NCBI GenBank assembly: GCA_030539335.1
Contig: JAUNSG010000011.1
Span: 19,238-83,237 of the forward strand
Length of the DNA stretch: 64,000 nt
Direction: 5' to 3'
Source: Eubacteriales bacterium
GTDB lineage: Bacteria; Bacillota; Clostridia; Oscillospirales; Butyricicoccaceae
Under the pieces are notes generated by a model. It searched no databases. It had not been told where the DNA came from and saw only the letters and a list, made by a program, of their open reading frames with translations. The position numbers and the translations under genes were made by a program. Shown one piece after another: positions 5,702 through 30,522 of the stretch (the stretch's first letter is position 1; every line of letters begins with the position of its first letter).

Positions 5702-8512
5702 ATGTATCAGAAGTTATTCGAATCCGGAAATATTGGCAAGGTAACGCTGAAAAATCGTCTCGTGATGTCTCCGATGGGCATTGGCCTGGCAGAGATGGAC
5801 GGCTCTCCGTCAGAGGATATGATCGCATTTTATGAAGCCCGTGCGATTGGCGGGGCCGGATTGATTATTCCAGAGATTACCCGTGTCAATGATATGCACG
5901 GAGCTGGTATGATGCGCCAGCTGTCTGTGACAAGGGATCGCAATGTGGAGGGTCTGGCCCGGCTGGCAGCGGCGATCCATAAGCATGGAAGCCGCATTTT
6001 TATTCAGCTGCATCATCCGGGCCGCGAGACGGTCACGGCATTGACCGGAGGGCCGGTGGTTTCGGCCTCTGCGATTCCATGTAAATATTTGCAGCAGGAA
6101 ACGCGTGCACTGACGACGGAGGAAGTCAAGCAGCTGATCGGACAGTTTATTGACGGTGCGGTTCGAGTCCAAAGGGCGGGATGTGACGGTGTGGAGCTGC
6201 ACGCTGCGCATGGATATCTGCTCCAGCAGTTCTTATCCCCGTATACGAATAAGAGAGAGGATGAATACGGCGGATCGTTTGAGAACCGCTTGCGCATGGT
6301 GAAGGAAATTATCGCGGGCATCCGCGAAGCGTGCGGTGCCGATTTCCCGATCGGCGTCCGTCTCAGTGTAGAAGAATTCCTGGATCAAACCGGAGTGACG
6401 GAAGATTACATTCATATTCAGGATGGCATCAAAATTGCCATGGCGCTGGAACAGAGTGGAATTGATTTTATCGATGTCTCGGTTGGTCTGTATGAGACGG
6501 GAAGCACCTGTGTGGAGCCGATTTCATTCCCGCAGGGCTGGCGGCGCGAGCTGCTCAAGGCGGTCAAGGATCATGTTTCCATTCCAGTGATCGGTGTCTC
6601 ATCGATCCGGGAACCGGCGGTTGCAGAAAAGATGTTGGAAGACGGCATTGAGGACTTTGTTTCCATGGGACGCAGCTGGCTGGCGGATGAACAGTGGGGC
6701 AGAAAGGTCCAGGAAGGCCGGGAAGAAGATCTGTGTAAATGTATCAACTGCCTGCGCTGCTTCGAGAGCCTGAATCAGTGGAACGGCGCCGGAATCCCGG
6801 CAGAATGCGCCCTGAACCCACGGATGGCGCGGGAGAAAAAATATGGCGATCTGATCTATGACCAGGAAGGCCATACCGCTGTTGTTGTTGGCGGAGGTCC
6901 GAGCGGCATGATCGCGGCCAAAACACTGGCAGAGCGCGGTGTGAAGGTTACATTGATTGACCGCGGCGAGGAATTGGGCGGCACGATCAATCTGGCGAAA
7001 AAGCCTCCGCTCAAGGAGCGGATGCAGTGGATCGCCGATTATTACCAGACGGCGTTGGATAAGCTGGGGGTTACGATCCAGCGGAACACAGAGGCAACGG
7101 CAGATCAGATTGCCGCGATGGCGCCGGATGCGGTGATTGTAGCGACGGGATCGAAGTCGGTGGTTCCATCGAAAATACCGGGAATCCAGCGTGAAACAGT
7201 ACATACGATTGAGGATGTTCTGTCCGGAAAGATTGCGCTGTCCGGAAAGAAGGTTGTCGTGGTCGGCGCAGGAAGCACGGGCATTGAGACCGCAGAATAT
7301 CTCTGCGCAGCCGGCAATACAGTGACGATTGCGGATATGCTGGACAAGGTTGCACCGAATGCAAACCATACCAATGTAGCGGACACTTGCGGCAGATTGC
7401 GCAAGTATGGGGCACAATTCCTTCTGGGTCATGCGCTGAAGGAAATCCAGGAAGGAAGTGTTGTTCTGGACCGTCAGAGCGACCACGAAGCGGTCACGGT
7501 TCCGGCAGATGCCGTTGTACTCTCCCTTGGATTCCGGCCGGACAATGGACTGGCACAGGAATTGAAGGAAAAAGGGATTCCGGTTGTTGTGACCGGCAAT
7601 GCCGTGAAGGACGGTACGATTGCCCCGGCGACCCGCAGCGGATACGAAGCCGCGCGAAAGCTGTTTGTCCGGGAAGAAAAGCGGCCGAGCTTCCTCACAG
7701 CCCCGGAGGAACTTCCGAATTTTGGAAAGGTTTCCCTGATGAAGAATCAGGAGGGAATCTATCTGGCATACTTGACGGACCCGGCTGCGATTGCGCGTCT
7801 CCTTCCGCCGCCGCTCAAGCCGTTTTCCGTTCCGGTGGTCACCCTGTCGGCATGTCATGTCAAGGAGCCGACCTTTGCGGACGATTATTATGAAGCGATC
7901 CTCGGCGTTTATTGTACGTATGGCAAGACACTGGGCCTGTATCCGATCGGACTGGTGCTGGGCGGCCCGGGCGCGGAGATGGCAGTGCAGTGTGGACGTG
8001 ACAACGGCTCCATCCCGAAAAAGCTCGGCGCAGAATTTGTGATCCGCCGCAATGGAAATGCGGTTACGGCACAGGTAACACGGCGCGGCACACAGCTTGT
8101 GGATGTGACGATGGAATTGGGCGAATACAACAATGCGATGACCGGCGTACTGTATCAGTTCCCGGAGGCAGGGAAAAAGACATATGGCGGCGGATTCTAT
8201 TTCCATCTGGATCGCGAGCCGGATGAAGCGGGGGTATCGCACTTCCAGAACGGCGCACTGCTGCAGAACTTGTGTGAATACAACTACCATTCCTGGGAGC
8301 CAGGCTTTGCCCGGCTGACGCTGCAATCCTCGATAGATGATCCATGGGCGGAGCTGCCGATCCATACAATCGTTGGCGGCGCATATTCCTGCAATGACCT
8401 GATGGTACACAAGCTGAATCTGGCAGAGAGGCTGGATGCCGATGAAATTGTTCCGTATCTGCTGACGGGTCGGTATGACCGTACCGCATTTATGGAAACC
8501 GGAAGAGTATAA
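5702..8512 (+). CDS. NADH:flavin oxidoreductase (OYE TIM barrel + 4Fe-4S + FAD/NAD domains) fused to a C-terminal acetoacetate-decarboxylase-family domain
   Basis: ELHAAHGYL, CINCLRC, VVGGGPSG and VVGAGSTG; from about aa 660 an ADC-like domain with GRDNGSIPKKLG (Schiff-base Lys pair). Confidence 0.88.
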   Translation: MYQKLFESGNIGKVTLKNRLVMSPMGIGLAEMDGSPSEDMIAFYEARAIGGAGLIIPEITRVNDMHGAGMMRQLSVTRDRNVEGLARLAAAIHKHGSRIFIQLHHPGRETVTALTGGPVVSASAIPCKYLQQETRALTTEEVKQLIGQFIDGAVRVQRAGCDGVELHAAHGYLLQQFLSPYTNKREDEYGGSFENRLRMVKEIIAGIREACGADFPIGVRLSVEEFLDQTGVTEDYIHIQDGIKIAMALEQSGIDFIDVSVGLYETGSTCVEPISFPQGWRRELLKAVKDHVSIPVIGVSSIREPAVAEKMLEDGIEDFVSMGRSWLADEQWGRKVQEGREEDLCKCINCLRCFESLNQWNGAGIPAECALNPRMAREKKYGDLIYDQEGHTAVVVGGGPSGMIAAKTLAERGVKVTLIDRGEELGGTINLAKKPPLKERMQWIADYYQTALDKLGVTIQRNTEATADQIAAMAPDAVIVATGSKSVVPSKIPGIQRETVHTIEDVLSGKIALSGKKVVVVGAGSTGIETAEYLCAAGNTVTIADMLDKVAPNANHTNVADTCGRLRKYGAQFLLGHALKEIQEGSVVLDRQSDHEAVTVPADAVVLSLGFRPDNGLAQELKEKGIPVVVTGNAVKDGTIAPATRSGYEAARKLFVREEKRPSFLTAPEELPNFGKVSLMKNQEGIYLAYLTDPAAIARLLPPPLKPFSVPVVTLSACHVKEPTFADDYYEAILGVYCTYGKTLGLYPIGLVLGGPGAEMAVQCGRDNGSIPKKLGAEFVIRRNGNAVTAQVTRRGTQLVDVTMELGEYNNAMTGVLYQFPEAGKKTYGGGFYFHLDREPDEAGVSHFQNGALLQNLCEYNYHSWEPGFARLTLQSSIDDPWAELPIHTIVGGAYSCNDLMVHKLNLAERLDADEIVPYLLTGRYDRTAFMETGRV

Positions 8513-12190: not shown

Positions 12191-13966
12191 TTAATCCAGG
12201 TTCGAAAGCTGCTCTACGGTCAGGGCAATATCATTTTCGGCGTGAATGCCGAGATCCATCAGCATGTCGCCAATTTCGATTGGTTCCGAGTGACCGGGAA
12301 GGATTGCATTGAGCTTGCCACCCATAAAGATCCAATATTCTTTGCCGCGTTCCTCGGCAAGCTGGATGAGCTGACGGCCATAATCCAGAGCCTGGCCGTT
12401 GTGACAGCTGATGCCGATGTACTTGGTATCCACCTCATCCGCCAGGTCAAGCATGTCAACCGCATCCATATCGACACCGGCATTGACGGTTTCCGCTCCC
12501 ATCTCCTGCAAAACACCTTCGACAAGAACCAGGCCATACGTATGGGCATCGCCGGAGCCGACCACGACCTTTTTGCCGGTCAACGAACCGCGCAGTTGCT
12601 TGGCATCCAGACCGTCGATGATTTCCTGCTTCATCGCTAAGGTCTGCCGACCGAGTACCGTAGTGTAGAACGGCTTGATTTCCGTGTTTGCTGTGCCATA
12701 GGTCGAAGAGTGGAACATTTGCTCGTAACGGATCGGGTTCATTTCTGTGAGAACCAAAAGCATTTCCACCGGATCTTCGATGTCGATCCCCGCTTCTTTC
12801 AATCCCTCTAAGCTGTTGCGGAATAGCTTTTCGCCTTCTTCTGCCATGACATCGCGCATCTTTTCCAGCGGCGCAAAGTTGAAGTACGGAAGCCATTCGT
12901 CTGCCTTCTCTTCCGCACGCTTGCCGGCGGCAAAAATATCCTCCAGCTCCTGCAGCGTTGGAACACGCAGTTTCTCGGTGATGGAAACCGGATTGATGCC
13001 CAAACCCATGTGATATTTCTTTTCGACTAGAATTTCAAACAGCATTTCCGGAACGGAAACACCATAATTGCCATGGATGTCATGATCCCACTGCAAGTTG
13101 GTAGAACCGTTTAGGTAACGGAGAACCGGCTGGTCTTCGGTGGAGAGAACCTTATGCAGAGCCATTGCTACGGCACAGCGGGTGTCATTTTCACTCAGAA
13201 GACCGCCAAAGCCAATGGTATAGCGGGCGCCGCATAGGGTTGTGCAGATGTAGTGCTCCAACATGGCATAGCCAATATAGGAGGCGCAGTCCAAAAAGTA
13301 TCCGGCGTAACCGTCATCCAGATAGGTTTTTACTTCAAAGTATTCGTCACGTTTGGAGGCGACAACGCCCAGCGCTTTGACCATATTACACATGCGTTCG
13401 ACGTTGTCGTCATAGCCGAAAAAGCCCCAGTTAAACTGGCAGAATTCACCGATGGTTGGCGAACCATACTCTATTGCGAGAATGGTATTGGCCAGGCCGT
13501 TCGGTGTCGAGAGATGATAATCGTTGAAGGAGATATCGATCGGGCAGGCGTACTGCTGTACGGCGTAATCCTCCGGGGAATACATCTCATAGCTGGTAGT
13601 CGCGGGAGCCTTTTCACGCCATTCCGGAGGGAGGGCAACCAGGCCGCTTGGAATAGACTGAATCGAATGGATTTCCAGACCGGACCGCTGGGAGAATTCA
13701 TACAGCTTCTTTTCTGCCTCTACCTGTTCCTCCAGGGTGGCAAGTCCCAGAAGGATATTCCAATAGATTTTTCCCTGTTTCATCAAATCACGCTTCATTT
13801 CCGCATGATTTTTATATTTGTCCTGGCTGCGGATAAACCCACCGCGGCCAGCCTGGATGCTGTTGCCGATTTCTATGCCTTCCTTCAGCATGTCGCGTCC
13901 GTCGGGATGCTTTCCGGGCTTCAGGCTTTGAAGATATTCCAGCGAGACTTGATTTAGATGACCCAT
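12191..13966 (-). CDS. cobalamin-binding enzyme, 2-methyleneglutarate-mutase-like (putative AdoCbl radical mutase/lyase)
   Basis: 591 aa; C-terminal B12 Rossmann domain with SGDAHTYG (DxHxxG, His475), GISCHNG, FMGGKL; N-terminal segments (YLDDGYAG, ASYIG) match my recollection of Mgm; no CxxxCxxC. Confidence 0.75.
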   Translation of the reverse strand: MGHLNQVSLEYLQSLKPGKHPDGRDMLKEGIEIGNSIQAGRGGFIRSQDKYKNHAEMKRDLMKQGKIYWNILLGLATLEEQVEAEKKLYEFSQRSGLEIHSIQSIPSGLVALPPEWREKAPATTSYEMYSPEDYAVQQYACPIDISFNDYHLSTPNGLANTILAIEYGSPTIGEFCQFNWGFFGYDDNVERMCNMVKALGVVASKRDEYFEVKTYLDDGYAGYFLDCASYIGYAMLEHYICTTLCGARYTIGFGGLLSENDTRCAVAMALHKVLSTEDQPVLRYLNGSTNLQWDHDIHGNYGVSVPEMLFEILVEKKYHMGLGINPVSITEKLRVPTLQELEDIFAAGKRAEEKADEWLPYFNFAPLEKMRDVMAEEGEKLFRNSLEGLKEAGIDIEDPVEMLLVLTEMNPIRYEQMFHSSTYGTANTEIKPFYTTVLGRQTLAMKQEIIDGLDAKQLRGSLTGKKVVVGSGDAHTYGLVLVEGVLQEMGAETVNAGVDMDAVDMLDLADEVDTKYIGISCHNGQALDYGRQLIQLAEERGKEYWIFMGGKLNAILPGHSEPIEIGDMLMDLGIHAENDIALTVEQLSNLD

Positions 13967-13990
13967 AATTGTGTTCTCCTTTTTATTTTT

Positions 13991-15931
13991 TTAGGTCCAT
14001 TGCGGACTGCCGATAGCAGTAGCAACAATCTTTGATTGAATAAATGTTTTTTCTTCCGAGCCGACCGATTGGGTATAGGTTGGGATGATGGAATGACCAA
14101 CCGCACAGTTTCCACCGCCAGCGAGCGTTGCCTTCGCAGCGGCTTCGGTTTCGACCGTCTGAATGGCCCATTTTTCCGCGTCCTGCAAGTTGGGAAACCA
14201 GGTTGCTCCCCGCACGGAATGGACGACAAACCCTTTGTGATACTGGTCCGGACGAATTAAAGCCTCCGCAGTCAGAAGAACTTGCCCGACAGCGGCGCCG
14301 ATTGCATTGGCGACTTCTGCGTGTTCCGGAATCGTCAGATCCGTGTCAAGGGATTGACTGACCGTTGGAAACCAGGCAGCGACGGGCGCTCCGATTGCGA
14401 CGATTGGTTTTTTTAAAGACAGCTGTGACCGGAGGATTGGGTGATCGGAATCCAGCAGGAAACGGATACTTGGATGATAGAAATTGAATGTGCTGTGTTC
14501 GAAGTCCGCTGTGCTTTGCAGGCAGGCGATCTGAAGCTGACGATGGACTGCATCCAGACAGCTTTGCAAAAAGGAATCCGGAGTTTGTGCGGCCCGCTTT
14601 GCCAGAATGCCCAGTGCAGCGGCGGATGTTTTCGAATTTCCATGTACACGGCCGGCAGCATGAAGCAGATCGGTTGGCGTCAATGAGCACCGCTGCAACA
14701 CCCCGCGGCTGACATAGGAATCAAAGTCCAGCTTATCAAAGTCATGCCCCATCTTTTCGGAAAGATAGAACCGGGTATGCGGACCGTCGCGGAGGAGGGA
14801 AGTGAGTTTTTGCTCCTCGTAGTCCGCCTGCTCGGAAGGCTGTAGAAGTGTATAGCAGTCTACCGCCTGGCCGGTAAAGATCTCATGGGAATAGGAAGGC
14901 AGATAGGTTTCCCATTCCGCGATTAAATTGGGATTTTCCGTACCGGCCAGACAGAGCGGAATGACACGCTGTGGGCCGACAACAATATCCCCTTTGATAT
15001 TCCACTGGATGTAACTGTCACCGCCGATCCCATGTGTGGATATTTCAGCGGCACGCAGCTGTGTTTTCCAGCCGCCCACCGTAGCGCCGGAGTCCGAGAG
15101 GGAGATCTGTCCCTTGGTTACATTGGCGATATCCGTCGTCGTGCCGCCCATGTCAATGATGAGCGCGTCCTTGGACTGGGTTAAAAATAATCCGCCGGAG
15201 ATACTTGCAGCCGGGCCGGACAGGACCGTTTCGATCGGGCGGTTCAAGGCGAATTGATCCAACATCAGCGTGCCGTCGCCGCGGACAACCATGCACGGGG
15301 CATGGATGTTTCGCTCCTTTAACGCCCTCTGTACGGCGGCGATGAGGTGGGTGATATTGGGGATTAGAGCGGCATTCAGAACTGCGGTAACCGTGCGGTC
15401 GAAAAAGCCTAACGAATTGCTCAGTTCGTGCGCGCAGACAACCGGGATGGAGAGAATGCGCTGCACAGACGCTTTGACCTGAAGCTCATGCGCAGGGTTC
15501 CGCACGCTGGCAAAGCCGGAGATCGCAACCGCATCGATCTGACCACGCCAAGAAGCGGCAATCGACTCGATTTCGGCGGATTGCATAGGTTCTTTTTCTC
15601 GCCCTTTGATATCCAACTGCCCGGCGATCTGGTGGAGCTTATGCGCGGGAACTGCCTGCGCGTCTAAGGGACGCCCCATATACAGCAGACCGACCCGTCC
15701 TCCTCTCCCTTCCACCACGGCATTCGTAGCAAGCGTGGTGGAAAGGCAGACTGTAGAAATGGCATCCGGCTGCGAAAAGTGCAGATGTTCCAGGCTTTTG
15801 ACGATGCCGTGCAGCAGATTATTTTTTGTGGTATATGCTTTGGCTTTGTGAAGAATTCGGCGGCTGGCCGCGTCGATGATGACACTATCCGTGAAGGTTC
15901 CGCCCGTATCAATTCCGAGAATCACAGACAT
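13991..15931 (-). CDS. hydantoinase/oxoprolinase A-family ASKHA ATPase without a B subunit
   Basis: GIDTGGTFTD, IDMGGTTTD, SGPAAS, GIGGDS, ANAIGAA; 646 aa. Confidence 0.85.
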   Translation of the reverse strand: MSVILGIDTGGTFTDSVIIDAASRRILHKAKAYTTKNNLLHGIVKSLEHLHFSQPDAISTVCLSTTLATNAVVEGRGGRVGLLYMGRPLDAQAVPAHKLHQIAGQLDIKGREKEPMQSAEIESIAASWRGQIDAVAISGFASVRNPAHELQVKASVQRILSIPVVCAHELSNSLGFFDRTVTAVLNAALIPNITHLIAAVQRALKERNIHAPCMVVRGDGTLMLDQFALNRPIETVLSGPAASISGGLFLTQSKDALIIDMGGTTTDIANVTKGQISLSDSGATVGGWKTQLRAAEISTHGIGGDSYIQWNIKGDIVVGPQRVIPLCLAGTENPNLIAEWETYLPSYSHEIFTGQAVDCYTLLQPSEQADYEEQKLTSLLRDGPHTRFYLSEKMGHDFDKLDFDSYVSRGVLQRCSLTPTDLLHAAGRVHGNSKTSAAALGILAKRAAQTPDSFLQSCLDAVHRQLQIACLQSTADFEHSTFNFYHPSIRFLLDSDHPILRSQLSLKKPIVAIGAPVAAWFPTVSQSLDTDLTIPEHAEVANAIGAAVGQVLLTAEALIRPDQYHKGFVVHSVRGATWFPNLQDAEKWAIQTVETEAAAKATLAGGGNCAVGHSIIPTYTQSVGSEEKTFIQSKIVATAIGSPQWT

Positions 15932-16077
15932 GGAAATTCCTCCGTTTCCGACGGGAATATACCCAGGATAGGGAAACAGAGGCTGGCCAAATGGCTCAGC
16001 CTCTGCCTCCGCAAGTGTTTGTACATAGTGTGTGAAAAGGAAGTTGGATGTATACGAATTTGGTATGGAATTGTTTT

Positions 16078-17493
16078 TTACTTGATGTTGTATGTCTCAG
16101 AAACCTTGGCGATTTCAGCATCCAGGATATCAAAAATTTCGTCGACCTGTGCAATGGTGAGGTTGATCGGCGGGATAAAGGACAGGCGGTTGCCATAATA
16201 GCCGTTCAGCTGGGCGAGCAGACCGGCATCGCGCAGATTATTGACCAGTGCATGTGCTTCTTTCTTGGCCGGCTCCTTTGTCGTGCGGTCCCGAACCAGC
16301 TCCAGACCGAAGTATACGCCCTTTGCCGAGTAGGTACCAACGATGGGATACTTCTCCATGAGCTGATCCGCTCTCTTAACGATCTGCTCTCCGGCTCTGG
16401 TGCAGACCTCCAGAAGGTTGTCTTCTTCGATAATGTCAAGAACCGTGTTTGCTACGCGGCAGCCCATGGAATAGCCGGCATAGGTAGAGCAGATGAAGCT
16501 TACGTCAATGTCTTCAAACAGTTCGGCACGGCCGACGATACCAGACATTGGGATACCGGCGCCAAGCGCTTTGCCGAAGACCAGGATATCCGGGGCGACA
16601 TTTTCGTGCTCACATGCCCACATCTTGCCGGTACGGCCCATACCCGTCTGAACTTCGTCAAAGATCAGCAGGAAGCCGTATTTATCGGCCAGCTTGCGCA
16701 GTTCTCTGAGGAAGCCTTCCGGCGGAACGATGTATCCGGCCGAGCTTTGGCAGGGCTCAACGATCAGAGCAGCGACGTTGCAGATACCGGAATCCGGAGC
16801 ACCCATCGGCGTAACGCTGGTTGACATCATATTATCGATGAGCTGGACACACTGCTTTGCGCAATCGACACCGTCGCCGTCACCGTACGGGTTGCGGTAC
16901 GCATAGGGATAAGGGAACTGGTGGATGCAATTGTCCTGGGCCGGCATCGGGTTGTAATAGCTGGTCATGCGGCCGGAGCCGGTCAGTCCCATGGTCGCGG
17001 AGTTCTGGCCATGATAGGCGCCATAGAATGAAATGATGTGCTGGCGCTTGGTTGCATAGCGTGCCAAACGGATTGCATTTTCGACTGCATCCGAGCCGGA
17101 CAGGGCCAGACGGACACGCTTCGGGAAGTCACCCGGCGTGATGTCGATCAGACGGTTTACCAGCTTCAAACGCTCCGGAGTCGGGAAGTCAAACCAGAAA
17201 TCCAGCTCATTCATATACTGGTCGTACATTGCGTCGGCAATGCGCTTGTCAGAGTGGCCGAGGTTCATAGCGGACATGCCGGAGATACAGTCGATGTATT
17301 CCTTACCGTCAACGTCCCAGATGCGGTTACCCTTGCCTCTTTTGATAATCTGCGGATAGTCCCACTTGGTGAAGAGAACATTGCCCGGATGCTCGTGCTT
17401 CAGGAAGTCAATCAGCCCTTCCTTGTTGCCCGGAGTGACGCTCTCTGCGTTTTCAATGCGTTCCAGCAGTGCTTCATAAGGCTTCTTTGCCAT
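16078..17493 (-). CDS. class III PLP aminotransferase (omega-amine/GABA aminotransferase-like)
   Basis: SGSDAVE, AYHG, IFDEVQTGMGRTG, FGKALGAG (PLP Lys), STYAG. Confidence 0.93.
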   Translation of the reverse strand: MAKKPYEALLERIENAESVTPGNKEGLIDFLKHEHPGNVLFTKWDYPQIIKRGKGNRIWDVDGKEYIDCISGMSAMNLGHSDKRIADAMYDQYMNELDFWFDFPTPERLKLVNRLIDITPGDFPKRVRLALSGSDAVENAIRLARYATKRQHIISFYGAYHGQNSATMGLTGSGRMTSYYNPMPAQDNCIHQFPYPYAYRNPYGDGDGVDCAKQCVQLIDNMMSTSVTPMGAPDSGICNVAALIVEPCQSSAGYIVPPEGFLRELRKLADKYGFLLIFDEVQTGMGRTGKMWACEHENVAPDILVFGKALGAGIPMSGIVGRAELFEDIDVSFICSTYAGYSMGCRVANTVLDIIEEDNLLEVCTRAGEQIVKRADQLMEKYPIVGTYSAKGVYFGLELVRDRTTKEPAKKEAHALVNNLRDAGLLAQLNGYYGNRLSFIPPINLTIAQVDEIFDILDAEIAKVSETYNIK

Positions 17494-17506
17494 GATTCAT
17501 ACCTCC

Positions 17507-17523
17507 ATATATTAATATATTAG
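17507..17523 (-). promoter_or_regulatory. operator copy abutting the aminotransferase RBS
   Basis: ATATATTAATATATTAG directly upstream of the GGAGGT RBS. Confidence 0.75.
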
Positions 17524-17604
17524 ATTGGCTGATTTTTTTGGGCACAATCGATCTGTTTGAGGCCGATGTACCCAATGGAGATGCCGCTCCGTGATTTGTT
17601 ATAA

Positions 17605-17635
17605 ATATATTAATATATTAGTGCGAAAGTGTCAA
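17605..17635 (-). promoter_or_regulatory. sigmaA promoter with operator (aminotransferase-ATPase-mutase operon)
   Basis: minus strand TTGACA (17635-17630)-N17-TAATAT (17612-17607); ATATATTAATATATTAG at 17605-17621. Confidence 0.8.
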
Positions 17636-17679
17636 GGGGAAAATGAAAAAAACAAAGAGAAAAATTTTTGTGAAAGGTG

Positions 17680-17712
17680 TTGACAAACAATGAGTAATAT
17701 ATTAATATATAA
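17680..17712 (+). promoter_or_regulatory. sigmaA promoter with operator (ald)
   Basis: TTGACA 17680-17685, N17, TAATAT 17703-17708; TAATATATTAATATAT. Confidence 0.8.
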
Positions 17713-17787
17713 GAAAGAAGGCGGACAACCAATTCGAGTGCGCTGGAAAGTTCAAGCATATTCTATAGAATAAAGGAGTGTACAAAA

Positions 17788-18903
17788 ATGATCGTAGGAC
17801 TGGTTAAAGAAATCAAGAATCACGAGTACCGCGTGGGACTGACCCCGAATGATGTCAAGGCATATGTGGATGCCGGCAATAAAGTGATCGTTGAAACTGC
17901 CGCGGGTGAGGGCTCCGGGTTTACCAATGAGGAGTACACAGCAGCCGGCGCGGCCATTCTGGATACTGCGGCGGAAGTATGGGCCAAGGCTGACATGATC
18001 GTCAAGGTAAAGGAGCCGATTGCGTCGGAATATCCGTATCTGAAGAAGGATCAGATTCTGTATACTTATCTGCATCTGGCTGCGGACCGTCCGTTGACCG
18101 AGGCCCTCTTGAAGGCTGGAACCAAGGCGGTTGCTTATGAGACCATCACTGGAAAGAACGGCGGCCTGCCGTGCCTGACCCCGATGAGCCAGATTGCCGG
18201 ACGCATGGCGATTCAGGAGGGCGCGAAGTATTTGGAGAAGCCGTTCGGTGGCCGCGGCATGCTCTTAGCTGGCGTTCCGGGCGTTGAGAAGGCAAATGTT
18301 GTGATTCTTGGCGGCGGCGGAGTTGGAACCAATGCGTGCAAGATGGCGGTTGGAATGGGTGCAAATGTAACGATTCTGGACGTAAGTGCAGAGCGTCTGG
18401 CCTATTTAGATGATATTTTTGGAAGCCGCATCCAGACGCTGTACAGCAGCCGTGCAAATATTCTGGAATCCATCGCAAAGGCAGACCTGGTAATCGGCGC
18501 TGTTCTGCTGCCGGGCCGCAAGACACCGAACCTGATTCGGAAGGATGACCTGAAGCTCATGAAGAAGGGTGCGGTTGTCGTAGATGTTGCCGTTGACCAG
18601 GGCGGATGCATCGAGACGACCCATGCCACCACGCACGAGGAACCGGTATTCCTTGTAGATGGCATTGTTCACTACTGCGTTGCGAATATGCCGGGTGCCG
18701 TTTCGCGTACCTCGACGCTGGCGCTGGCAAACACCACACTGGCCCATGGCCTGGCGCTGGCAAACAAGGGATTCGAGCAGGCGATCAGAGAAGATGCTTG
18801 CCTGGCACAGGGAGTGAACTGCTACGACGGCAAGTGCACCTATGCCGGTGTTGCAGAAGCGCTGGACCTGGAGTTCCATGATATCCATGATCTGATTGGT
18901 TAA
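17788..18903 (+). CDS. ald: alanine dehydrogenase
   Basis: KEIKNHEYRVGLTP, KVKEP, YLHLAA, VILGGGGVG, DVAVDQGG, YCVANMPG. Confidence 0.96.
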   Translation: MIVGLVKEIKNHEYRVGLTPNDVKAYVDAGNKVIVETAAGEGSGFTNEEYTAAGAAILDTAAEVWAKADMIVKVKEPIASEYPYLKKDQILYTYLHLAADRPLTEALLKAGTKAVAYETITGKNGGLPCLTPMSQIAGRMAIQEGAKYLEKPFGGRGMLLAGVPGVEKANVVILGGGGVGTNACKMAVGMGANVTILDVSAERLAYLDDIFGSRIQTLYSSRANILESIAKADLVIGAVLLPGRKTPNLIRKDDLKLMKKGAVVVDVAVDQGGCIETTHATTHEEPVFLVDGIVHYCVANMPGAVSRTSTLALANTTLAHGLALANKGFEQAIREDACLAQGVNCYDGKCTYAGVAEALDLEFHDIHDLIG

Positions 18904-18950
18904 TCCAAATCATACATAGACAGTAATTCCTCTCTTAATTTCTGTGATGA

Positions 18951-18985
18951 AAGCCCTCCGACTTGCCACGGAGGGCTTCTTCCTT
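18951..18985 (+). terminator. terminator after ald
   Basis: AAGCCCTCCG/CGGAGGGCTT stem followed by a pyrimidine run. Confidence 0.7.
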
Positions 18986-19006
18986 ATATCGAAGGATAAA
19001 AAGTAC

Positions 19007-19048
19007 TTGATTTTGATGGCAAAATAGATTAAAGTATTAATATATTAG
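19007..19048 (+). promoter_or_regulatory. promoter with operator (alpha/beta hydrolase)
   Basis: TTGATT-N17-TAAAGT, then GTATTAATATATTAG at 19034-19048. Confidence 0.65.
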
Positions 19049-19066
19049 AAAGTGAGGGCGGTTGAT

Positions 19067-19846
19067 ATGAAATCAATATGCTATTCCAGCCGTGGCCAGA
19101 CTGTTTTCGGGTATGCACATGTACCTCAGACCAGGGGGAAAGCGCCGGCAATTCTGATGTGCCACGGATTTACGGGCTGTGCACAGGAAGGATCACGGCT
19201 GTTTGTACGATTTGCAGAGCAGGCATGCCGGCTTGGATTTTATGTCATGCGGATCGATTTTTTGGGTTCGGGGAACAGCGAACTGGATTTTGCAACGTAT
19301 ACTACGCCAAGCGGATGGATTGAGGACGCGAAAAATGGCATCCGGTTTTTAAAAGAGCAGCCGGAGGTGGACCCGGATCGGATCGCGATTCTTGGAGTCA
19401 GTCTCGGCGGATTTACTGCACTCATGACAGGAGCGGAGACCGATGTCGCGGCGGTGGTCGGCTGGGCTCCGGTGCTCAATCCTGCAAAAACCTTCCGTGG
19501 GATTTTGACGGAAAATAATTGGGATTATCTATTGGCGGGAAACCGGACAATCGAGTATATCTACTGTGGAAATCATTTTGCAGTCGGCAGTAAATTTGTA
19601 CAGGATCTGGAACGAATGTCGGTAACGGAGAGCTTAAAGCGGTATCGGGATATCCCGGTCTTGATTATGCAGGGAAGCAGCGATGCGGTGATCGACCCGC
19701 AGGATTCCGTAAAGCTGAAGCAATCCGGCGTATTCCCCTTTCAGCATGTCATGGTTGAAGGGGAAGAGCATTCCTTCCTGCTCCATGAGAAGAGCAATTT
19801 TTCCACGACGCTCGACTTCTTGCGCCGGGCGTTACTGGCCGTATAA
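19067..19846 (+). CDS. alpha/beta-fold serine hydrolase (esterase/amidase-like)
   Basis: CHGFTG, GVSLGG nucleophile elbow, DAVID, EEHSF; ATG at 19067 preferred over GTG at 19052. Confidence 0.88.
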   Translation: MKSICYSSRGQTVFGYAHVPQTRGKAPAILMCHGFTGCAQEGSRLFVRFAEQACRLGFYVMRIDFLGSGNSELDFATYTTPSGWIEDAKNGIRFLKEQPEVDPDRIAILGVSLGGFTALMTGAETDVAAVVGWAPVLNPAKTFRGILTENNWDYLLAGNRTIEYIYCGNHFAVGSKFVQDLERMSVTESLKRYRDIPVLIMQGSSDAVIDPQDSVKLKQSGVFPFQHVMVEGEEHSFLLHEKSNFSTTLDFLRRALLAV

Positions 19847-20659: not shown

Positions 20660-21187
20660 TTAAAATTCGATTCCTTCGCGGCTGGGCTGGCCACGATCAA
20701 ATGGATGCTTTATCTTGCAGATGTGGGATACATAATCCGCGTGACGCAGCAGGGTATCGCTGGGATTTTGTCCGGTAAGGATCACTTCCAGGTGGGATGG
20801 ACGATGGATCAGACAGGAAATCAGCTCTTCTTCGGCGATCAGGCCGGAAGCCACCGCGTAGACGGATTCATCTAGGAAGAGAAGATCGTATTCCGTGGAC
20901 CGGGCAAAGAGGTCCTTCAACAGCATGCGGTAGTGTTGAATGGTTTCCTCCCGCTCCGCGGGCGTCATTTGAAAGCTGAATTTTACATTGTCCGGTCCGT
21001 TTAACCGGGTTACGTTCGGCAGATGAGAAAGGGAACGGATCTCACCGGTGGAATTATCTTTCAAAAATTGATAGATCAGCACACGTTTTCCGCGCCCGGC
21101 GGCACGGATGCACAATCCCATTCCGGCGCTGGTTTTTCCTTTCCCGTCGCCGCAGTAGATGTGAATACAGCCTTTTTGTGTTTTCAT
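20660..21187 (-). CDS. cobO: cob(I)alamin/corrinoid adenosyltransferase (CobO/BtuR type)
   Basis: IHIYCGDGKGKTSA, QFLK, LDE, EVILTG, HPFDRG...REGIEF. Confidence 0.92.
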   Translation of the reverse strand: MKTQKGCIHIYCGDGKGKTSAGMGLCIRAAGRGKRVLIYQFLKDNSTGEIRSLSHLPNVTRLNGPDNVKFSFQMTPAEREETIQHYRMLLKDLFARSTEYDLLFLDESVYAVASGLIAEEELISCLIHRPSHLEVILTGQNPSDTLLRHADYVSHICKIKHPFDRGQPSREGIEF

Positions 21188-27178: not shown

Positions 27179-28132
27179 TTATGCCCCGGTCCCTCCGACG
27201 TTTACACGCAGACCGGAACGTTCCCAATACTCCTTGGCCTTCTGAATGGCCTCGTCCGTCGGAGGTTCCATCGTTTCACAGGAATAATCTCGATAGAGCG
27301 CAGACCACTTGTTGGAGCCCATCTGGTGGAAGGGAAGAATATGAATATCCTCAATGGAATTGTCTGCTGCAATGCGGGCGATCGTTTCGAGCATTGCGTC
27401 ACCGGTATTGACACCGGGGATCATTGGATATCGTAAAATCACGCGCGTCCCTTTGCGCCGCAAGCTTTCCAGATTGCAGAGGATCGGTTGGAATTGCTGG
27501 CCGGTTTGCGGAACGCTTGCACGGTCATCCGGAACCTTGATATCAAAAAGAACCAGATTGACATGATCCGTCACCTGGGTAAAACGTTCCGGCGCACAAA
27601 AGCCGCAGGTCTCAATCGCAGTGTGGATACCGGCGACCTGTAAACGGCGGAGCAGTTCCGAGGCAAAGGGGGCATACGTGGTACATTCGCCGCCGCTTAA
27701 TGTGACGCCTCCGCCGCTTTTTTCATAAAATACCTGATCGCGGATTGCGATGTCAAAGACTTCGTCCACGGACATCAGCGCGCCGGATACCTTCAGTGCG
27801 CCGGGATAGCAGGCTTCCGCACACTGTCCGCACCGTTTGCATTTTGTGACGTCGATGGAAATGCCTGCCTCGCCGACGGAAAGTGCGCCGTTTTTGCAGG
27901 TGCGGATGCAGTTTCCGCAGCCGATGCAATTGTCCTTGAAGTACATCAATTCCGGGGCCTGGCGCCAGGTCTCAGGGTTCTGGCACCAGCGGCAGCGGAG
28001 AGGACAACCTTTGAAAAAAACCATGGTGCGGATTCCGGGACCATCGTGAACCGTAAAGCGTTGAATATCAGTGACAACCGCCAGACGACCGTCTTTGATC
28101 TGTTCCCGTTGGGTCTGGTAAGTGTTCATCAT
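27179..28132 (-). CDS. glycyl-radical enzyme activating enzyme (radical SAM with ferredoxin insertion)
   Basis: QRFTVHDGPGIRT, CPLRCRWCQNPE, two CxxCxxCxxxC motifs, GGVTLSGGE; ATG at 28132 after GAGGTGA. Confidence 0.95.
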   Translation of the reverse strand: MMNTYQTQREQIKDGRLAVVTDIQRFTVHDGPGIRTMVFFKGCPLRCRWCQNPETWRQAPELMYFKDNCIGCGNCIRTCKNGALSVGEAGISIDVTKCKRCGQCAEACYPGALKVSGALMSVDEVFDIAIRDQVFYEKSGGGVTLSGGECTTYAPFASELLRRLQVAGIHTAIETCGFCAPERFTQVTDHVNLVLFDIKVPDDRASVPQTGQQFQPILCNLESLRRKGTRVILRYPMIPGVNTGDAMLETIARIAADNSIEDIHILPFHQMGSNKWSALYRDYSCETMEPPTDEAIQKAKEYWERSGLRVNVGGTGA

Positions 28133-28155
28133 ATGTAGGATCACCTCTTAGAATT

Positions 28156-28186
28156 ATGGGCTGTGTGCGAACAGCACACAGCCCAT
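28156..28186. other. perfect 13-bp hairpin between GRE and activase
   Basis: ATGGGCTGTGTGC-GAACA-GCACACAGCCCAT. Confidence 0.7.
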
Positions 28187-28209
28187 GGTTCGGTTTTCTG
28201 TGTTCAGCA

Positions 28210-30522
28210 TCAGATGCTGTGTTTGGTACGGTTGATAATGATTTCCTGCTGTGTTCGGGAAAGCGCAATGAAGTAAGCGGACAATCCGCCCAGATGGACA
28301 CGCAGGCCAGGATATTTTTCCGGGTGCTCCTGCGCATCCCGCAGCATCTCGGTGCTTGTGCCGGTGACCGTCATCATGATACCGCCGAGGTCGATAAACG
28401 ATTCGATCAGGGACTGGACGCGCTTGACGCCTTCCTCGCCTGCCAGCTCGTCGGAATTGATCTGCATATCGAGCGGACCGCCGGAATAATACGGCATGAT
28501 GTCCGGATGTGTGATGGACTTGATGACAGCGGTCGGCCCGTGAAGGTCAAGTCCGACGGACGGGGAGTAGTTGCTGCTTACGGTCTCCATAGAATGGCGG
28601 CCGTCCGCGGAAGCGCCGCAGCGGTGGCCAAAGTTTGCATAGCTCTCAAACGTGCCGCAGCCTACGTTGACAATGAAACCATTTTCCGCCTTTTCCTTGA
28701 CATCCGGCTGTGCGGCGCGCTCGTTGACGATGATCTCGAAATCCTTCATCAGGCGGGATGCAATCTCATCTGCCTCTGGATCGTCGTTGCCGAATTTCGG
28801 CGCGCGGTTGATGAGCATCTGCCGGAGGGCCTCCTGCCCCTTGAAATCGGTCCGAAGCGCTTTCCGGAGAGCCTCCATCGTCAATGTTTTCTCATCGTAG
28901 ACGAACTTCTTAATGGCAATCAGGGAATCCACACAATTGGCAAGGCCGGTCAGGAGGAAGGTATAAATGCTGTACTTTGCACCGCCGTTGGCGATATCCA
29001 ATCCTTGCGGGATGCAGTTATCGAGGAATGCGGAGAACAGTACGGATGGAGCAATCTTATAGCGCTCCTGCCAATAGCTGATTCGCAGATTCATAATGCG
29101 GTCAACATCATAACGGATCGAATCCAGAAAAGCTGCGTACAGATCTTCAAAGGTCTTAAACTGCAGCGGATCGCCGAAGGAAGGCGCTTCCTTGACGCCA
29201 CGCGCCATGCTTACACCTTCGTTCAAAAGGTATTCCAACAGCAGCAGAACCTGAATATGGCCATACTGGTAGTTGGTTTTGCCCGGAATCAGGACCTCCC
29301 AGCAACCATCGTTGGAATAGCAGCGGGCTTCCTCAAGCGGGATACCGGACTTCACCAGGCCATGGATGATCGGTTCGTCGTTGTAAATGGTCGGTTCACC
29401 GCTTCCGGTCCGCAGGATTCTTGCGCACATTTCATATAGCTTTTTCGGGCTGTTTTTGTGGAACCGAACAGACATAACCGGAGAGACAAGCTCAAAATAG
29501 TTCCACTGTTTGAGGATCATATAGGTCAATTCGTTGGTGGCATCCGAGCCGTCGGCCTTTACGCCACCGAGGATGACATTCTGCTCCCAATGGTTTGCGG
29601 AGGTGCCGAGGTTGTACTCCTCTGCATTCTCCATGGAAAAGACATTGTCGGCTTCATCCAGACAGCCGCCGTCATAGTTTTCGTCAACTGCGGTCATGTG
29701 ATCGAATTCCCAATGGGAGGAATCCATCTGGACACGCTCCGAGAATTTGACCAGCCAACTGCCGGTCAACTCCTCCGCCTGCTCTACGGTAATTGCACCG
29801 GATTCGATGTCTTTCTTATAGTACGGATAGAAATACTGATCGGGACGTCCGACAGCAACCTCTTCCATGCAGCTATGTAGGCTGAGGAAAAAGAAGAAAA
29901 AGCTCTGAAGCGCTTCGTGATAGCTTTCTGCCGGATATTCTGGCACTTTGTTGCAGATGCGAGCCATTTCCAGAAGCTCCTTGGCACGGGCCGGATCGGA
30001 TTCCCGATTTGCCTGACGAAGGCACATCTCTGCGTATCGGTGGGCGATGTCAACTACCGAATCCACACTGATAATCATTGCACGCCACAGATTGATTTTT
30101 TCCTGATCCGGGGAATCCTTTTGCAGTTCTGCTTCGACGGCCTGATAGATTTCTTCCTTGATGCCGCGGATACCGACGCGGAGCAGCTTCTCATAGTCGG
30201 CGGGATGTTTTGCCGCAACATTTTTCTCGGTAAAACCGGACTTTAAACCAGCTTCCTTTTCCTCCGGAAGAGCATACTGCGGAAATTCACGCCCGTAGCC
30301 GACAGACAGCATGTTGATTTTTCCGACAATCAGTTCATCGGACTTTAGCTCTGCCGGCATGTGACGCAGCAGGTGTTGGATGGCCAATGCTTTTCGAACA
30401 ACCAGTGGCTCTGCCTTGATCTCATCCGAGGTCAAGATGGTTTCATCCTTTCCCCACCATTCAATCTTCGTATAGTAGTCTTTTTTAAACAGACGTTCCT
30501 TGATTTTCTCCATTCGGGTCAT
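28210..30522 (-). CDS. glycyl radical enzyme, divergent uncharacterised subfamily
   Basis: 770 aa PFL2-like landmarks (GRPDQYFYPYY, PKFGNDD, ADGR); Cys loop NDGCWE (C407); Gly loop RVHLGGLSAYF (G746); adjacent activase. Confidence 0.88.
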   Translation of the reverse strand: MTRMEKIKERLFKKDYYTKIEWWGKDETILTSDEIKAEPLVVRKALAIQHLLRHMPAELKSDELIVGKINMLSVGYGREFPQYALPEEKEAGLKSGFTEKNVAAKHPADYEKLLRVGIRGIKEEIYQAVEAELQKDSPDQEKINLWRAMIISVDSVVDIAHRYAEMCLRQANRESDPARAKELLEMARICNKVPEYPAESYHEALQSFFFFFLSLHSCMEEVAVGRPDQYFYPYYKKDIESGAITVEQAEELTGSWLVKFSERVQMDSSHWEFDHMTAVDENYDGGCLDEADNVFSMENAEEYNLGTSANHWEQNVILGGVKADGSDATNELTYMILKQWNYFELVSPVMSVRFHKNSPKKLYEMCARILRTGSGEPTIYNDEPIIHGLVKSGIPLEEARCYSNDGCWEVLIPGKTNYQYGHIQVLLLLEYLLNEGVSMARGVKEAPSFGDPLQFKTFEDLYAAFLDSIRYDVDRIMNLRISYWQERYKIAPSVLFSAFLDNCIPQGLDIANGGAKYSIYTFLLTGLANCVDSLIAIKKFVYDEKTLTMEALRKALRTDFKGQEALRQMLINRAPKFGNDDPEADEIASRLMKDFEIIVNERAAQPDVKEKAENGFIVNVGCGTFESYANFGHRCGASADGRHSMETVSSNYSPSVGLDLHGPTAVIKSITHPDIMPYYSGGPLDMQINSDELAGEEGVKRVQSLIESFIDLGGIMMTVTGTSTEMLRDAQEHPEKYPGLRVHLGGLSAYFIALSRTQQEIIINRTKHSI

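What the first reader, a model, noticed from the sequence alone, without database searches (positions are those of the whole stretch)
13991..15931. Partnerless hydantoinase-A-type ATPase directly upstream of the B12 enzyme: candidate new reactivase
Seen: two ASKHA phosphate loops (DTGGTFTD, DMGGTTTD), no HyuB/oxoprolinase-B gene in the window, and only 24 bp to the mutase start. Established: AdoCbl enzymes suffer cofactor inactivation and use ATP-dependent reactivases, and the diol dehydratase reactivase DdrA is an actin/Hsp70-fold ATPase. Inference: this protein exchanges damaged cobalamin on the neighbouring enzyme, working with CobO, rather than hydrolysing a lactam.
Basis: inference. Interest (0 to 1): 0.65.

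Follow-up and report, generated by a model that had tools for sequence, protein, structure and literature searches.

The report
Hydantoinase-like helper ATPase for B12 enzyme
This gene encodes an ATP-binding protein related to hydantoinase subunit A; it has no B subunit anywhere in the genome, belongs to a large unstudied family that travels with vitamin-B12-binding proteins, and is most likely an ATP-driven helper that keeps the neighbouring B12 radical enzyme loaded with working cofactor, though no activity has been tested.

Summary
A 646-aa ORF (13991-15931, minus strand) carries DTGGTFTD and DMGGTTTD. It ends 24 nt before a 591-aa B12 enzyme, with an AAGGAG ribosome-binding site in the gap. 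No HyuB gene exists in the window or in the 100%-complete genome.

The protein has a true HyuA fold (AF2 pLDDT 89; best PDB matches are N-methylhydantoinase, acetone carboxylase beta and caprolactamase alpha). It sits in a separate HyuB-less family.

- About 15 of 19 well-flanked loci of the B12-enzyme family hold such a gene within 7 kb, in varying order and strand.
- More distant family members lie beside, or are fused to, corrinoid-methyltransferase parts (MttB, corrinoid protein, DUF1638, RACo) in about 50 of 80 loci.
- Distant relatives of the B12 enzyme (26% identity) carry a genuine GlmL/MutL gene in the same position. The family profile matches MutL over 251 columns (hhalign probability 97.5%).
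- This genome has two B12-enzyme paralogues and two HyuA-like paralogues, and no MeaB, EutA, DdrA or MutL.

Best reading (about 0.6): an ATP-dependent chaperone or reactivase of the AdoCbl enzyme. The CobO link is weak, and the biochemistry is untested. The scan has already noted this family on other DNA, in one similar operon and in several methyltransferase operons.

The parts
13991..15931 (-). HyuB-less HyuA-like ASKHA ATPase gene (646 aa, P0001)
   Evidence: AF2 model pLDDT 89.4, pTM 0.85. Foldseek top hits are HyuA-type subunits, E 1e-23 to 1e-29.
15887..15910 (-). PHOSPHATE-1 loop DTGGTFTD (residues 8-15)
   Evidence: D8, G10, G11, T12 and D15 are kept in at least 98% of 94 family members.
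15131..15154 (-). PHOSPHATE-2 loop DMGGTTTD (residues 260-267)
   Evidence: D260, G262, G263, T264 and D267 are 100% conserved.
14285..14407 (-). ADENOSINE/CONNECT-2-like motifs PIVAIGAPVAAW ... EVANAIGAAVG (residues 509-549)
   Evidence: G514, A515, P516, A543 and G545 are near-invariant. W520 and A547 are 100% conserved only in the B12-enzyme-linked members.
13967..13990 (-). 24-nt spacer with AAGGAG ribosome-binding site 8 nt before the B12-enzyme ATG
12191..13966 (-). Client: single-chain AdoCbl-mutase-like enzyme (591 aa, P0002), a barrel domain plus a C-terminal B12-binding domain
   Evidence: Pfam B12-binding at residues 471-558. AF2 pLDDT 86.6. Foldseek top hits are methylmalonyl-CoA mutase, ornithine 4,5-aminomutase and glutamate mutase E.
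12533..12550 (-). DxHxxG base-off/His-on cobalamin motif (D473, H475, G478)
   Evidence: Invariant in the 20-sequence alignment A2.
16078..17493 (-). Class III aminotransferase, first gene of the same transcription unit
   Evidence: Pfam Aminotran_3, 304 bits.
17607..17635 (-). Promoter-like TTGACA-N17-TAATAT with the shared TATTAATATATTA operator, upstream of the aminotransferase/HyuA-like/B12 unit
   Evidence: 7 copies in the window against 0 expected.
20660..21187 (-). CobO-type ATP:corrinoid adenosyltransferase, a possible source of fresh AdoCbl
   Evidence: Pfam CobA_CobO_BtuR, 174 bits. Linkage to the pair is seen elsewhere only in L106.

Best explanation
P0001 is a dedicated ATP-dependent accessory protein (chaperone or reactivase) of the adjacent AdoCbl-type radical enzyme P0002. 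It is not a hydantoinase or oxoprolinase. It derives from the HyuA branch of the ASKHA (actin/Hsp70/sugar-kinase) ATPases, keeps an intact nucleotide site and has lost the HyuB partner. The proposed mechanism is inferred by analogy with GlmL/MutL, DdrAB and EutA. It binds the enzyme when the cofactor has been damaged (cob(II)alamin or hydroxocobalamin after loss of the adenosyl group) or when the enzyme is empty. It uses ATP binding and hydrolysis to open the B12-binding Rossmann domain away from the barrel, so that the dead corrinoid leaves and AdoCbl can enter. The AdoCbl would be made by an adenosyltransferase such as the CobO encoded 4.7 kb away. Shown here: the fold, the conserved ATP motifs, the absence of HyuB, the conserved pairing with the B12 enzyme, and the family-wide linkage to B12-binding proteins. 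Inferred: physical interaction, ATPase activity and cofactor exchange.
For: (1) HyuA fold with all ASKHA nucleotide motifs near-invariant. (2) No HyuB in the genome or in 109 related loci, while 5 of 5 canonical HyuA controls have HyuB adjacent. Canonical HyuA scores only 74-115 bits against P0001, and only over residues 5-322; family members score 340-1450 bits. The tree splits the two groups at 100* support. (3) Pairing with the client: 11 of about 14 well-flanked metagenome loci of the P0002 family hold a HyuA-like gene within 7 kb, upstream or downstream, on the same or the opposite strand. All 3 long-contig loci have it directly adjacent while the other neighbours differ. (4) This genome has 2 P0002 paralogues, 2 HyuA-like paralogues and only 3 B12-binding-domain genes in all. 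(5) Positional analogue: 26%-identical single-chain B12 enzymes in two genomes are followed at once by full-length MutL/GlmL genes (445 and 459 bits). [quoted passage not shown] The P0001 family profile against a MutL profile gives hhalign probability 97.5%, E 8e-12, 251 columns. (6) The wider family: 50 of 80 loci hold MttB, corrinoid protein, DUF1638, pterin methyltransferase or RACo genes, the nearest within 200 bp in 35. DUF1638 is fused to the HyuA-like ORF in 10 loci. DUF1638 is genetically required for a split B12 methionine synthase (PMC5764234). The HyuA-like protein is strongly induced together with a glycine-betaine corrinoid methyltransferase cluster (PMC9768040). (7) The client has an AdoCbl-mutase fold and a DxHxxG motif, and such enzymes generally have dedicated chaperones. 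This genome has no MeaB, EutA, DdrA-type or MutL gene that could serve instead.
Against: Gene linkage cannot tell an accessory chaperone from an obligatory ATP-using subunit or a pathway enzyme. About 30 of 80 family loci show no B12-related neighbour. Three or four P0002-family loci have no HyuA-like gene within 7 kb, and the second paralogue pair in this genome lies 12 kb apart. HyuA-type proteins are known as substrate-phosphorylating subunits, not chaperones. The function of GlmL/MutL itself is poorly characterised. CobO linkage is rare.
Confidence: 0.6

Rival explanations
1. P0001 is an ATP-dependent catalytic partner in the pathway. Like HyuA in caprolactamase, N-methylhydantoinase or acetone carboxylase, it would phosphorylate a carbonyl or enol oxygen of the (unknown) substrate, so that the B12 enzyme acts on an activated intermediate. 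Alternatively it is an obligatory ATP-using subunit of the B12 enzyme.
For: The closest solved folds are all substrate-phosphorylating HyuA-type subunits and the nucleotide site is intact. The strict pairing with the B12 enzyme would also be expected of a two-component enzyme.
Against: Close relatives in the same family sit in corrinoid methyltransferase operons with chemically unrelated substrates and are fused to DUF1638. That argues for a cofactor- or protein-directed role rather than a substrate-directed one. In a sister B12-enzyme family the same position is held by MutL/GlmL, which is not a kinase of substrates. In this genome one pair is 12 kb apart.
Confidence: 0.17
2. P0001 is an Fe-S-less, ATP-coupled helper of corrinoid reduction or activation. 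It would work like RamA/RACE, holding the corrinoid in a conformation that lets an external reductant make Co(I), here feeding adenosylation rather than methyl transfer.
For: The family is linked to methyltransferase corrinoid proteins and to DUF1638, which co-varies with RamA-like activases (PMC5764234). CobO needs cob(I)alamin.
Against: RACo/RamA-type genes are present alongside the HyuA-like gene in 11 of the 80 loci, so the two are not redundant. P0001 has no Fe-S or Fer2 domain and no RACo_C_ter match. This genome has no RamA/RACo and no DUF1638. AdoCbl enzymes are normally repaired by cofactor exchange, not by on-enzyme reduction.
Confidence: 0.13
3. P0001 is an ordinary hydantoinase/oxoprolinase A subunit whose B subunit is encoded elsewhere or has diverged beyond recognition, and its position next to the B12 enzyme is incidental.
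For: Database names ('hydantoinase/oxoprolinase family protein') and Pfam Hydant_A_N and Hydantoinase_A matches.
Against: No HyuB in a 100%-complete genome by two methods. No HyuB in 109 related loci, although 5 of 5 canonical controls have it adjacent. A long, fully supported branch separates the family from HyuB-partnered HyuAs. The pairing with the B12 enzyme recurs in different gene orders.
Confidence: 0.03

Closest known systems
GlmL/MutL, accessory protein of glutamate mutase (Pfam PF13941, NCBIfam NF040745), and the GlmL-related Or-4 of ornithine aminomutase clusters
   Same: It is an ASKHA-type protein encoded directly beside an AdoCbl mutase with a DxHxxG B12 domain. A sister family of single-chain B12 enzymes has MutL in exactly this position. 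The N-terminal 250 residues are detectably homologous (hhalign 97.5%; MutL HMM 32-45 bits on all family members).
   Different: It is not a member: NF040745 scores 30 bits against a cut-off of 475, and PF13941 matches only profile positions 1-53. P0001 is 646 aa against about 460 aa. It has a HyuA-type helical insert and C-terminal beta domain, and is much closer to HyuA in sequence and fold.
HyuA-type subunits of ATP-dependent N-methylhydantoinase (PDB 9h03), caprolactamase (6yra), acetone carboxylase beta (5svc, 5m45) and acetophenone carboxylase (5l9w)
   Same: The full-length fold is the same (TM-score 0.56-0.67 normalised to the query, E 1e-23 to 1e-29). Both have Hydant_A_N and Hydantoinase_A domains. 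They share the nucleotide motifs, including TxTD at 418-421.
   Different: No HyuB partner exists anywhere. Sequence similarity is confined to residues 5-322. There are family-specific invariant residues: D219 and D305 where HyuA has N/S and G, and S64 and P516. The genomic partners are B12-binding proteins.
DdrAB/GdrAB (PduGH) and EutA reactivases of diol/glycerol dehydratase and ethanolamine ammonia-lyase
   Same: The proposed job is the same: ATP-dependent release of damaged cobalamin from an AdoCbl radical enzyme by an ASKHA-fold protein encoded beside it. This part rests on established knowledge of those systems.
   Different: No Pfam DDR (PF08841) or EutA (PF06277) match, and no DdrA chain among the top 50 fold matches. 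No DdrB-like small subunit was recognised, although I did not search for one specifically. The client is a base-off/His-on mutase-type enzyme, not a base-on eliminase.
RamA/RACo/RACE reductive activators of corrinoid proteins (COG3894; Raco_middle plus RACo_C_ter)
   Same: They are ASKHA ATPases that service B12-binding domains. They occur in the same operons as the methyltransferase-linked branch of this family.
   Different: P0001 has no Fe-S domain and no RACo_C_ter match. The two co-occur rather than replace each other. This genome has none.
'HydA hydantoinase' of glycine-betaine methyltransferase clusters ('Ca. Formimonas warabiya' DCMF, Sporomusa ovata; PMC9768040) and M. acetivorans MA4395/MA4396 beside mtaCB2 (PMC11619418)
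   Same: By annotation and gene context these are likely the same HyuB-less family, in its methyltransferase-linked branch (Sporomusa silvacetica locus L005); I did not compare their sequences directly. The DCMF protein is co-induced with its B12 system. No function is assigned in the literature.
   Different: Their clients are small methyl-carrier corrinoid proteins with MttB or MtaB methyltransferases, not an AdoCbl radical enzyme. In the tree they fall in a separate 77-row clade (99*) from the B12-enzyme-linked rows.

Membership tests
HyuA (hydantoinase/oxoprolinase A, Pfam PF05378 + PF01968) | Hydant_A_N and Hydantoinase_A domains above the gathering score | tested here: met
   116.5 bits and 95.7 bits, but Hydantoinase_A matches only profile positions 1-145 of 291.
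HyuA (hydantoinase/oxoprolinase A, Pfam PF05378 + PF01968) | Full-length HyuA fold | tested here: met
   Foldseek hits to 9h03, 5svc, 5l9w, 5m45 and 6yra with E 1e-23 to 1e-29 and TM-score 0.56-0.67.
HyuA (hydantoinase/oxoprolinase A, Pfam PF05378 + PF01968) | Works with a HyuB (PF02538) subunit, usually adjacent | tested here: not met
   No HyuB in the genome or in 109 family loci. It is adjacent in 5 of 5 canonical controls.
HyuA (hydantoinase/oxoprolinase A, Pfam PF05378 + PF01968) | ATP-dependent lactam, hydantoin or ketone activation | not testable with these tools
   Needs an enzyme assay.
GlmL/MutL (PF13941, NF040745) | Full-length match to the family model above its cut-off | tested here: not met
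   NF040745 scores 30.2 bits against a cut-off of 475. PF13941 scores 34 bits on profile positions 1-53 only. A local MutL HMM gives 32-45 bits, against 650-670 bits for true MutL.
GlmL/MutL (PF13941, NF040745) | Encoded beside an AdoCbl mutase with a DxHxxG B12 domain | tested here: met
   24-nt spacer to P0002, DxHxxG motif and mutase fold.
GlmL/MutL (PF13941, NF040745) | Detectable common ancestry | tested here: met
   hhalign probability 97.5%, E 7.8e-12, 251 columns covering both phosphate loops.
DdrA/PduG-type reactivase large subunit (PF08841) | DDR ATPase-like domain, with a DdrB/PduH small subunit | tested here: not met
   No PF08841 hit on P0001 at E<=0.01. The genome has only a sub-threshold 24-bit fragment elsewhere. 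No DdrA chain in the top 50 fold hits.
EutA (PF06277) | EutA domain | tested here: not met
   No hit on P0001 or in the genome.
RamA/RACo/RACE (PF14574, PF17651, Fe-S domain) | RACo_C_ter ASKHA domain plus an N-terminal Fe-S domain | tested here: not met
   No such Pfam hits on P0001. None in the genome.
ATP-dependent B12 reactivating factor (functional class) | ATP/Mg-dependent release of damaged cobalamin and recovery of enzyme activity | not testable with these tools
   Needs purified P0001 and P0002.
HyuB-less HyuA-like family linked to B12-binding proteins (uncharacterised) | About 650 aa; LSTTLATNA, D219, D305 and GAP motifs; no HyuB; a B12-binding protein nearby | tested here: met
   Alignments A1 and A3, motif table, tree and contexts.

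The most novel reading that the evidence does not exclude
The HyuB-less HyuA-like family as a whole is a fourth, undescribed lineage of B12 chaperones. It would be a general ATP-driven opener or loader of the base-off/His-on cobalamin-binding Rossmann domain, serving both AdoCbl radical enzymes (this clade) and the methyl-carrier corrinoid proteins of methylotrophic methanogens, acetogens and betaine degraders (the clade that works with, or is fused to, DUF1638). The clade here would be the branch that specialised on a new single-chain AdoCbl enzyme family.
Probability: 0.4. Interest if true: 0.8.

Novelty: new variant of a known kind. Interest (0 to 1): 0.62.

Why it matters
AdoCbl enzymes inactivate themselves, and each well-studied one has a dedicated repair or loading factor: MeaB/MMAA, DdrAB, EutA or GlmL. 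This gene would add a new, HyuA-derived lineage to that list. It would also give the first functional handle on thousands of proteins now named 'hydantoinase/oxoprolinase family protein'. Many of these sit in corrinoid methyltransferase operons of methanogens, acetogens and gut and marine betaine degraders, where an ATP-dependent step beyond RamA/RACE is unexplained. There is a practical point too. Anyone trying to reconstitute the uncharacterised P0002-type B12 enzyme, whose substrate is unknown, will probably need to co-express this protein. Genome annotation that infers hydantoin or oxoproline metabolism from these genes is probably wrong.

Tried and rejected
- A single-protein scan of genome contigs found nothing; it worked only with an alignment.
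- I could not retrieve the E. barkeri nicotinate-cluster paper to check for an Mgm-linked accessory gene. Four literature searches linking hydantoinase, reactivase or ASKHA to AdoCbl enzymes found nothing relevant.
- The 29 family loci with no corrinoid neighbour share no other conserved neighbour. A Pfam tally of 121 neighbour proteins showed no family in more than 6 of them, and none of the 25 commonest was HyuB or a B12 family. They neither help nor hurt.
- I rejected DdrA/EutA-like membership and RamA-like membership.
- I rejected a conserved CobO linkage: CobO is near the pair only in the window and in L106.
- No true MutL stands in for the HyuA-like gene in the P0002-family loci that lack one.
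- A complex prediction of P0001 with P0002 was not possible, because the tool folds single chains only.
- Caveats. ORFs in the fetched loci were called with my own simple longest-ORF script. The 80 loci are the best of more than 600 pattern matches, and many are related. The tree used the 'quick' method (SH-aLRT support only) and is rooted on a long outgroup branch.
Full report
**Observation.** The ORF at 13991-15931 on the minus strand encodes 646 aa. DTGGTFTD lies at residues 8-15 and DMGGTTTD at residues 260-267. Pfam finds Hydant_A_N (116.5 bits), the first half of Hydantoinase_A (95.7 bits, profile positions 1-145 of 291) and a weak MutL match (34 bits). NCBIfam finds only far-sub-threshold matches: caprolactamase alpha at 113 bits against a cut-off of 1000, and GlmL at 30 bits against 475. 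The stop codon is followed by 24 nt containing AAGGAG, then the ATG of a 591-aa protein with a C-terminal B12-binding domain (12191-13966). A class III aminotransferase lies upstream (16078-17493). The only strong promoter-like site for these three genes is TTGACA-N17-TAATAT at 17635-17607. It carries the operator-like TATTAATATATTA that recurs 7 times between 10.3 and 26.7 kb. CobO is at 20660-21187. HyuB (PF02538) is absent from the window and from the whole 2.76-Mb, 100%-complete genome. An independent HyuB HMM run against every genome ORF gave nothing at E<=1.

**What the protein is.** An AlphaFold2 model built on 84 homologues is confident (pLDDT 89.4, pTM 0.85). Its best PDB matches, over the full length, are the HyuA-type subunits of N-methylhydantoinase (9h03), acetone carboxylase (5svc, 5m45), acetophenone carboxylase (5l9w) and caprolactamase (6yra), with E 1e-23 to 1e-29 and TM-score 0.56-0.67. 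Generic sugar kinases follow far behind, and no DdrA chain appears in the top 50. All ASKHA nucleotide motifs are near-invariant in 94 family members: D8-x-GGT-x-TD, N70, E74, N145, E149, D260-x-GGTT-x-D, GxGGDS at 301-306, TxTD at 418-421, and G514 and A543-x-G545. The family also has its own invariant residues where canonical HyuA differs: S64, D219, D305 and P516. So it is a HyuA-fold protein that very probably still binds and hydrolyses ATP.

**A separate, HyuB-less family.** Thousands of proteins of about 650 aa match full length at 42-87% identity. Five canonical HyuA genes, taken from beside HyuB genes in genomes of the same phylum, score only 74-115 bits, and only over residues 5-322. 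In a maximum-likelihood tree they are cut off by a fully supported long branch. A HyuB HMM found HyuB next to all five controls. It found none in the 80 genome loci and 29 metagenome loci that hold members of the HyuB-less family.

**Link to the neighbouring enzyme.** The neighbour P0002 belongs to a well-conserved family of about 588 aa (58-88% identity) with an invariant DxHxxG motif. Its model (pLDDT 86.6) is most like methylmalonyl-CoA mutase, ornithine 4,5-aminomutase, glutamate mutase E and lysine 5,6-aminomutase. That is the barrel-plus-Rossmann layout of AdoCbl radical enzymes.
- Starting from P0002, so not biased by the ATPase, 11 of about 14 metagenome loci with adequate flanks hold a HyuA-like gene within 7 kb. 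It lies upstream or downstream, on the same or the opposite strand, and twice as a tandem pair.
- All three loci taken from long contigs have it directly adjacent, while the other neighbours change (aldehyde:ferredoxin oxidoreductase, KduI, transaldolase, ABC or TRAP transporters).
- In this genome there are two P0002 paralogues. The second is at C25:3796-5556, 56% identical, in a sugar-type operon. There are also two HyuA-like paralogues, the second at C25:17360-19186, just outside the window. Only three genes in the genome have a B12-binding domain.
- In the tree the window protein sits in an 8-row clade (96*) in which every member lies beside a P0002-type gene.

**Link to B12 proteins in general.** In the 80 GTDB loci of more distant members (33-48% identity), only three have a P0002 gene. 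Fifty have corrinoid-methyltransferase components: corrinoid protein in 32, MttB in 26, DUF1638 in 25, pterin methyltransferase in 17 and RACo/RamA-type activase in 11. The nearest such gene is within 200 bp in 35 loci; the five canonical HyuA/HyuB loci have none. In 10 loci DUF1638 is fused to the N-terminus of the HyuA-like ORF, and in about 10 more it is adjacent. The literature supports the context but assigns no function.
- A 'HydA hydantoinase' is part of glycine-betaine methyltransferase clusters, and its protein is strongly induced on betaine in strain DCMF (PMC9768040).
- MA4395/MA4396 lie beside mtaCB2 in M. acetivorans (PMC11619418).
- DUF1638, together with a RamA-like protein, is genetically needed for a split B12 methionine synthase (PMC5764234).

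A family that accompanies two chemically unrelated kinds of B12 protein is more likely to act on the shared element, the cobalamin-binding domain and its cofactor, than on substrates.

**Positional analogue.** Two genomes hold 26%-identical single-chain B12 enzymes of the same length and layout as P0002. In both, the next gene (a 4-bp overlap in one, a 16-bp gap in the other) is a full-length MutL/GlmL-family gene, at 445 and 459 bits. [quoted passage not shown] The HyuB-less family profile matches a MutL profile at hhalign probability 97.5% (E 8e-12) over 251 columns spanning both phosphate loops. A MutL HMM gives all family members 32-45 bits. So P0001 holds, beside its B12 enzyme, the place that a distantly homologous accessory ATPase holds in the sister family. 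This genome has no MeaB (only 19-bit P-loop fragments), no EutA, no DDR domain above threshold, no MutL, no RamA/RACo and no DUF1638. The two HyuA-like proteins are therefore the only recognisable candidates for a B12 chaperone.

**Mechanism and its status.** I commit to an ATP-dependent chaperone or reactivase. It would bind P0002 when the cofactor is damaged or missing, and use ATP-driven opening of the B12 domain to release the dead corrinoid and let AdoCbl in. Fold, motifs, absence of HyuB and linkage are shown. Interaction, ATPase activity and exchange are inferred. CobO is close to the pair only here and in L106, where B12 enzyme, HyuA-like gene and CobO are contiguous. I found no perfect operator copy in front of the cobO unit.

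**Rivals.**
- A substrate-activating kinase-like subunit (0.17). The HyuA precedent favours it; the methyltransferase and DUF1638 contexts and the MutL analogue disfavour it.
- An Fe-S-less helper of corrinoid reduction (0.13). It is disfavoured because RACo genes co-occur with the family rather than replace it.
- A conventional hydantoinase with a hidden partner (0.03).

**Novelty and prior notes.** No paper that I could find assigns this family a role. ASKHA-type reactivases of AdoCbl enzymes are a known kind (DdrA, EutA, GlmL), so I class this as a new variant: a HyuA-derived lineage. After I had reached the reading above, I looked up earlier notes of this scan. They show that the same family has been flagged repeatedly on other DNA, once in a similar aminotransferase/ATPase/B12 operon and several times in corrinoid methyltransferase operons, with the same general conclusion. 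Those are unchecked AI notes and do not count as independent evidence. The checks reported here are my own.

**Limits.** Gene calls in the fetched loci are from a simple script. The loci are partly related to one another. The tree is a quick search with a long outgroup branch, so the basal position of the B12-enzyme-linked rows is suggestive only. About 30 of 80 family loci show no informative neighbour.

Noticed in passing
G000 contig C25:117-9853 and 17360-19186 (upstream of the window; locus L090): A second P0002 paralogue (56% identity) sits in an operon with glutamate dehydrogenase, aldehyde dehydrogenase, two xylose-isomerase-like TIM barrels, class II aldolase, Zn-alcohol dehydrogenase and an FGGY kinase. 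A second, shorter HyuA-like paralogue lacks residues about 328-413 of P0001 and lies 12 kb downstream of it, ending 52 bp before the window starts.
   Followed up: partly
L100:10347-13999, L102:8856-12014, L156:11934-15613: Some P0002-family loci carry two tandem HyuA-like genes (about 660 aa and about 570 aa), which suggests a heterodimeric version. This recalls the MA4395/MA4396 pair in M. acetivorans.
   Followed up: no
L106:6965-11275: B12 enzyme, HyuA-like gene and CobO are contiguous on one strand. This is the only other locus in which CobO accompanies the pair.
   Followed up: partly
window 15977-16005 (minus strand): A 9-bp inverted repeat (CAGAGGCTG ... CAGCCTCTG) followed by TTTCCC lies in the 146-nt spacer between the aminotransferase and the HyuA-like gene. 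It may be an attenuator or an mRNA-processing or stability element inside the operon.
   Followed up: no
L029, L031, L033, L044, L056, L061, L063, L067, L078 (ORFs of about 940-980 aa): These ORFs are N-terminal DUF1638 fused to the HyuA-like ATPase. In the tree most of them fall in one clade that also contains unfused members lying beside methyltransferase genes.
   Followed up: partly
L150:321-4930 and L151:3580-8698 (genomes G188, G129): A distinct family of single-chain B12 enzymes (582-588 aa, 26% identical to P0002) is paired with MutL and flanked by PLP enzymes (class I/II aminotransferase, beta-eliminating lyase). It may be another uncharacterised AdoCbl enzyme of amino-acid metabolism.
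   Followed up: no
search of 251 genomes of the phylum: MutL-family genes are very common (98 of 251 genomes). Some genomes (G194, G226, G081, G131) hold 5-6 copies in open frames of 600-650 aa, which points to a longer, multi-copy MutL subfamily of unknown clients.
   Followed up: no
window 520/547-equivalent columns of the family alignment: W520 and A547 are 100% conserved in the B12-enzyme-linked HyuA-like proteins but are mostly Y and V in the methyltransferase-linked ones. They may be client-specificity positions beside the adenosine motif.
   Followed up: no
window 5702-8512 (+): A single 936-aa ORF fuses an Old-Yellow-Enzyme FMN domain, a pyridine-nucleotide-disulphide-oxidoreductase domain and an acetoacetate-decarboxylase-family domain. 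It lies beside a PucR-type regulator and a short-chain dehydrogenase.
   Followed up: no
window 27179-30522 (-): A glycyl radical enzyme (PFL-like plus Gly_radical) with its radical-SAM activase lies 11 kb from the B12 cluster, next to an AraC regulator and a TRAP solute-binding protein.
   Followed up: no
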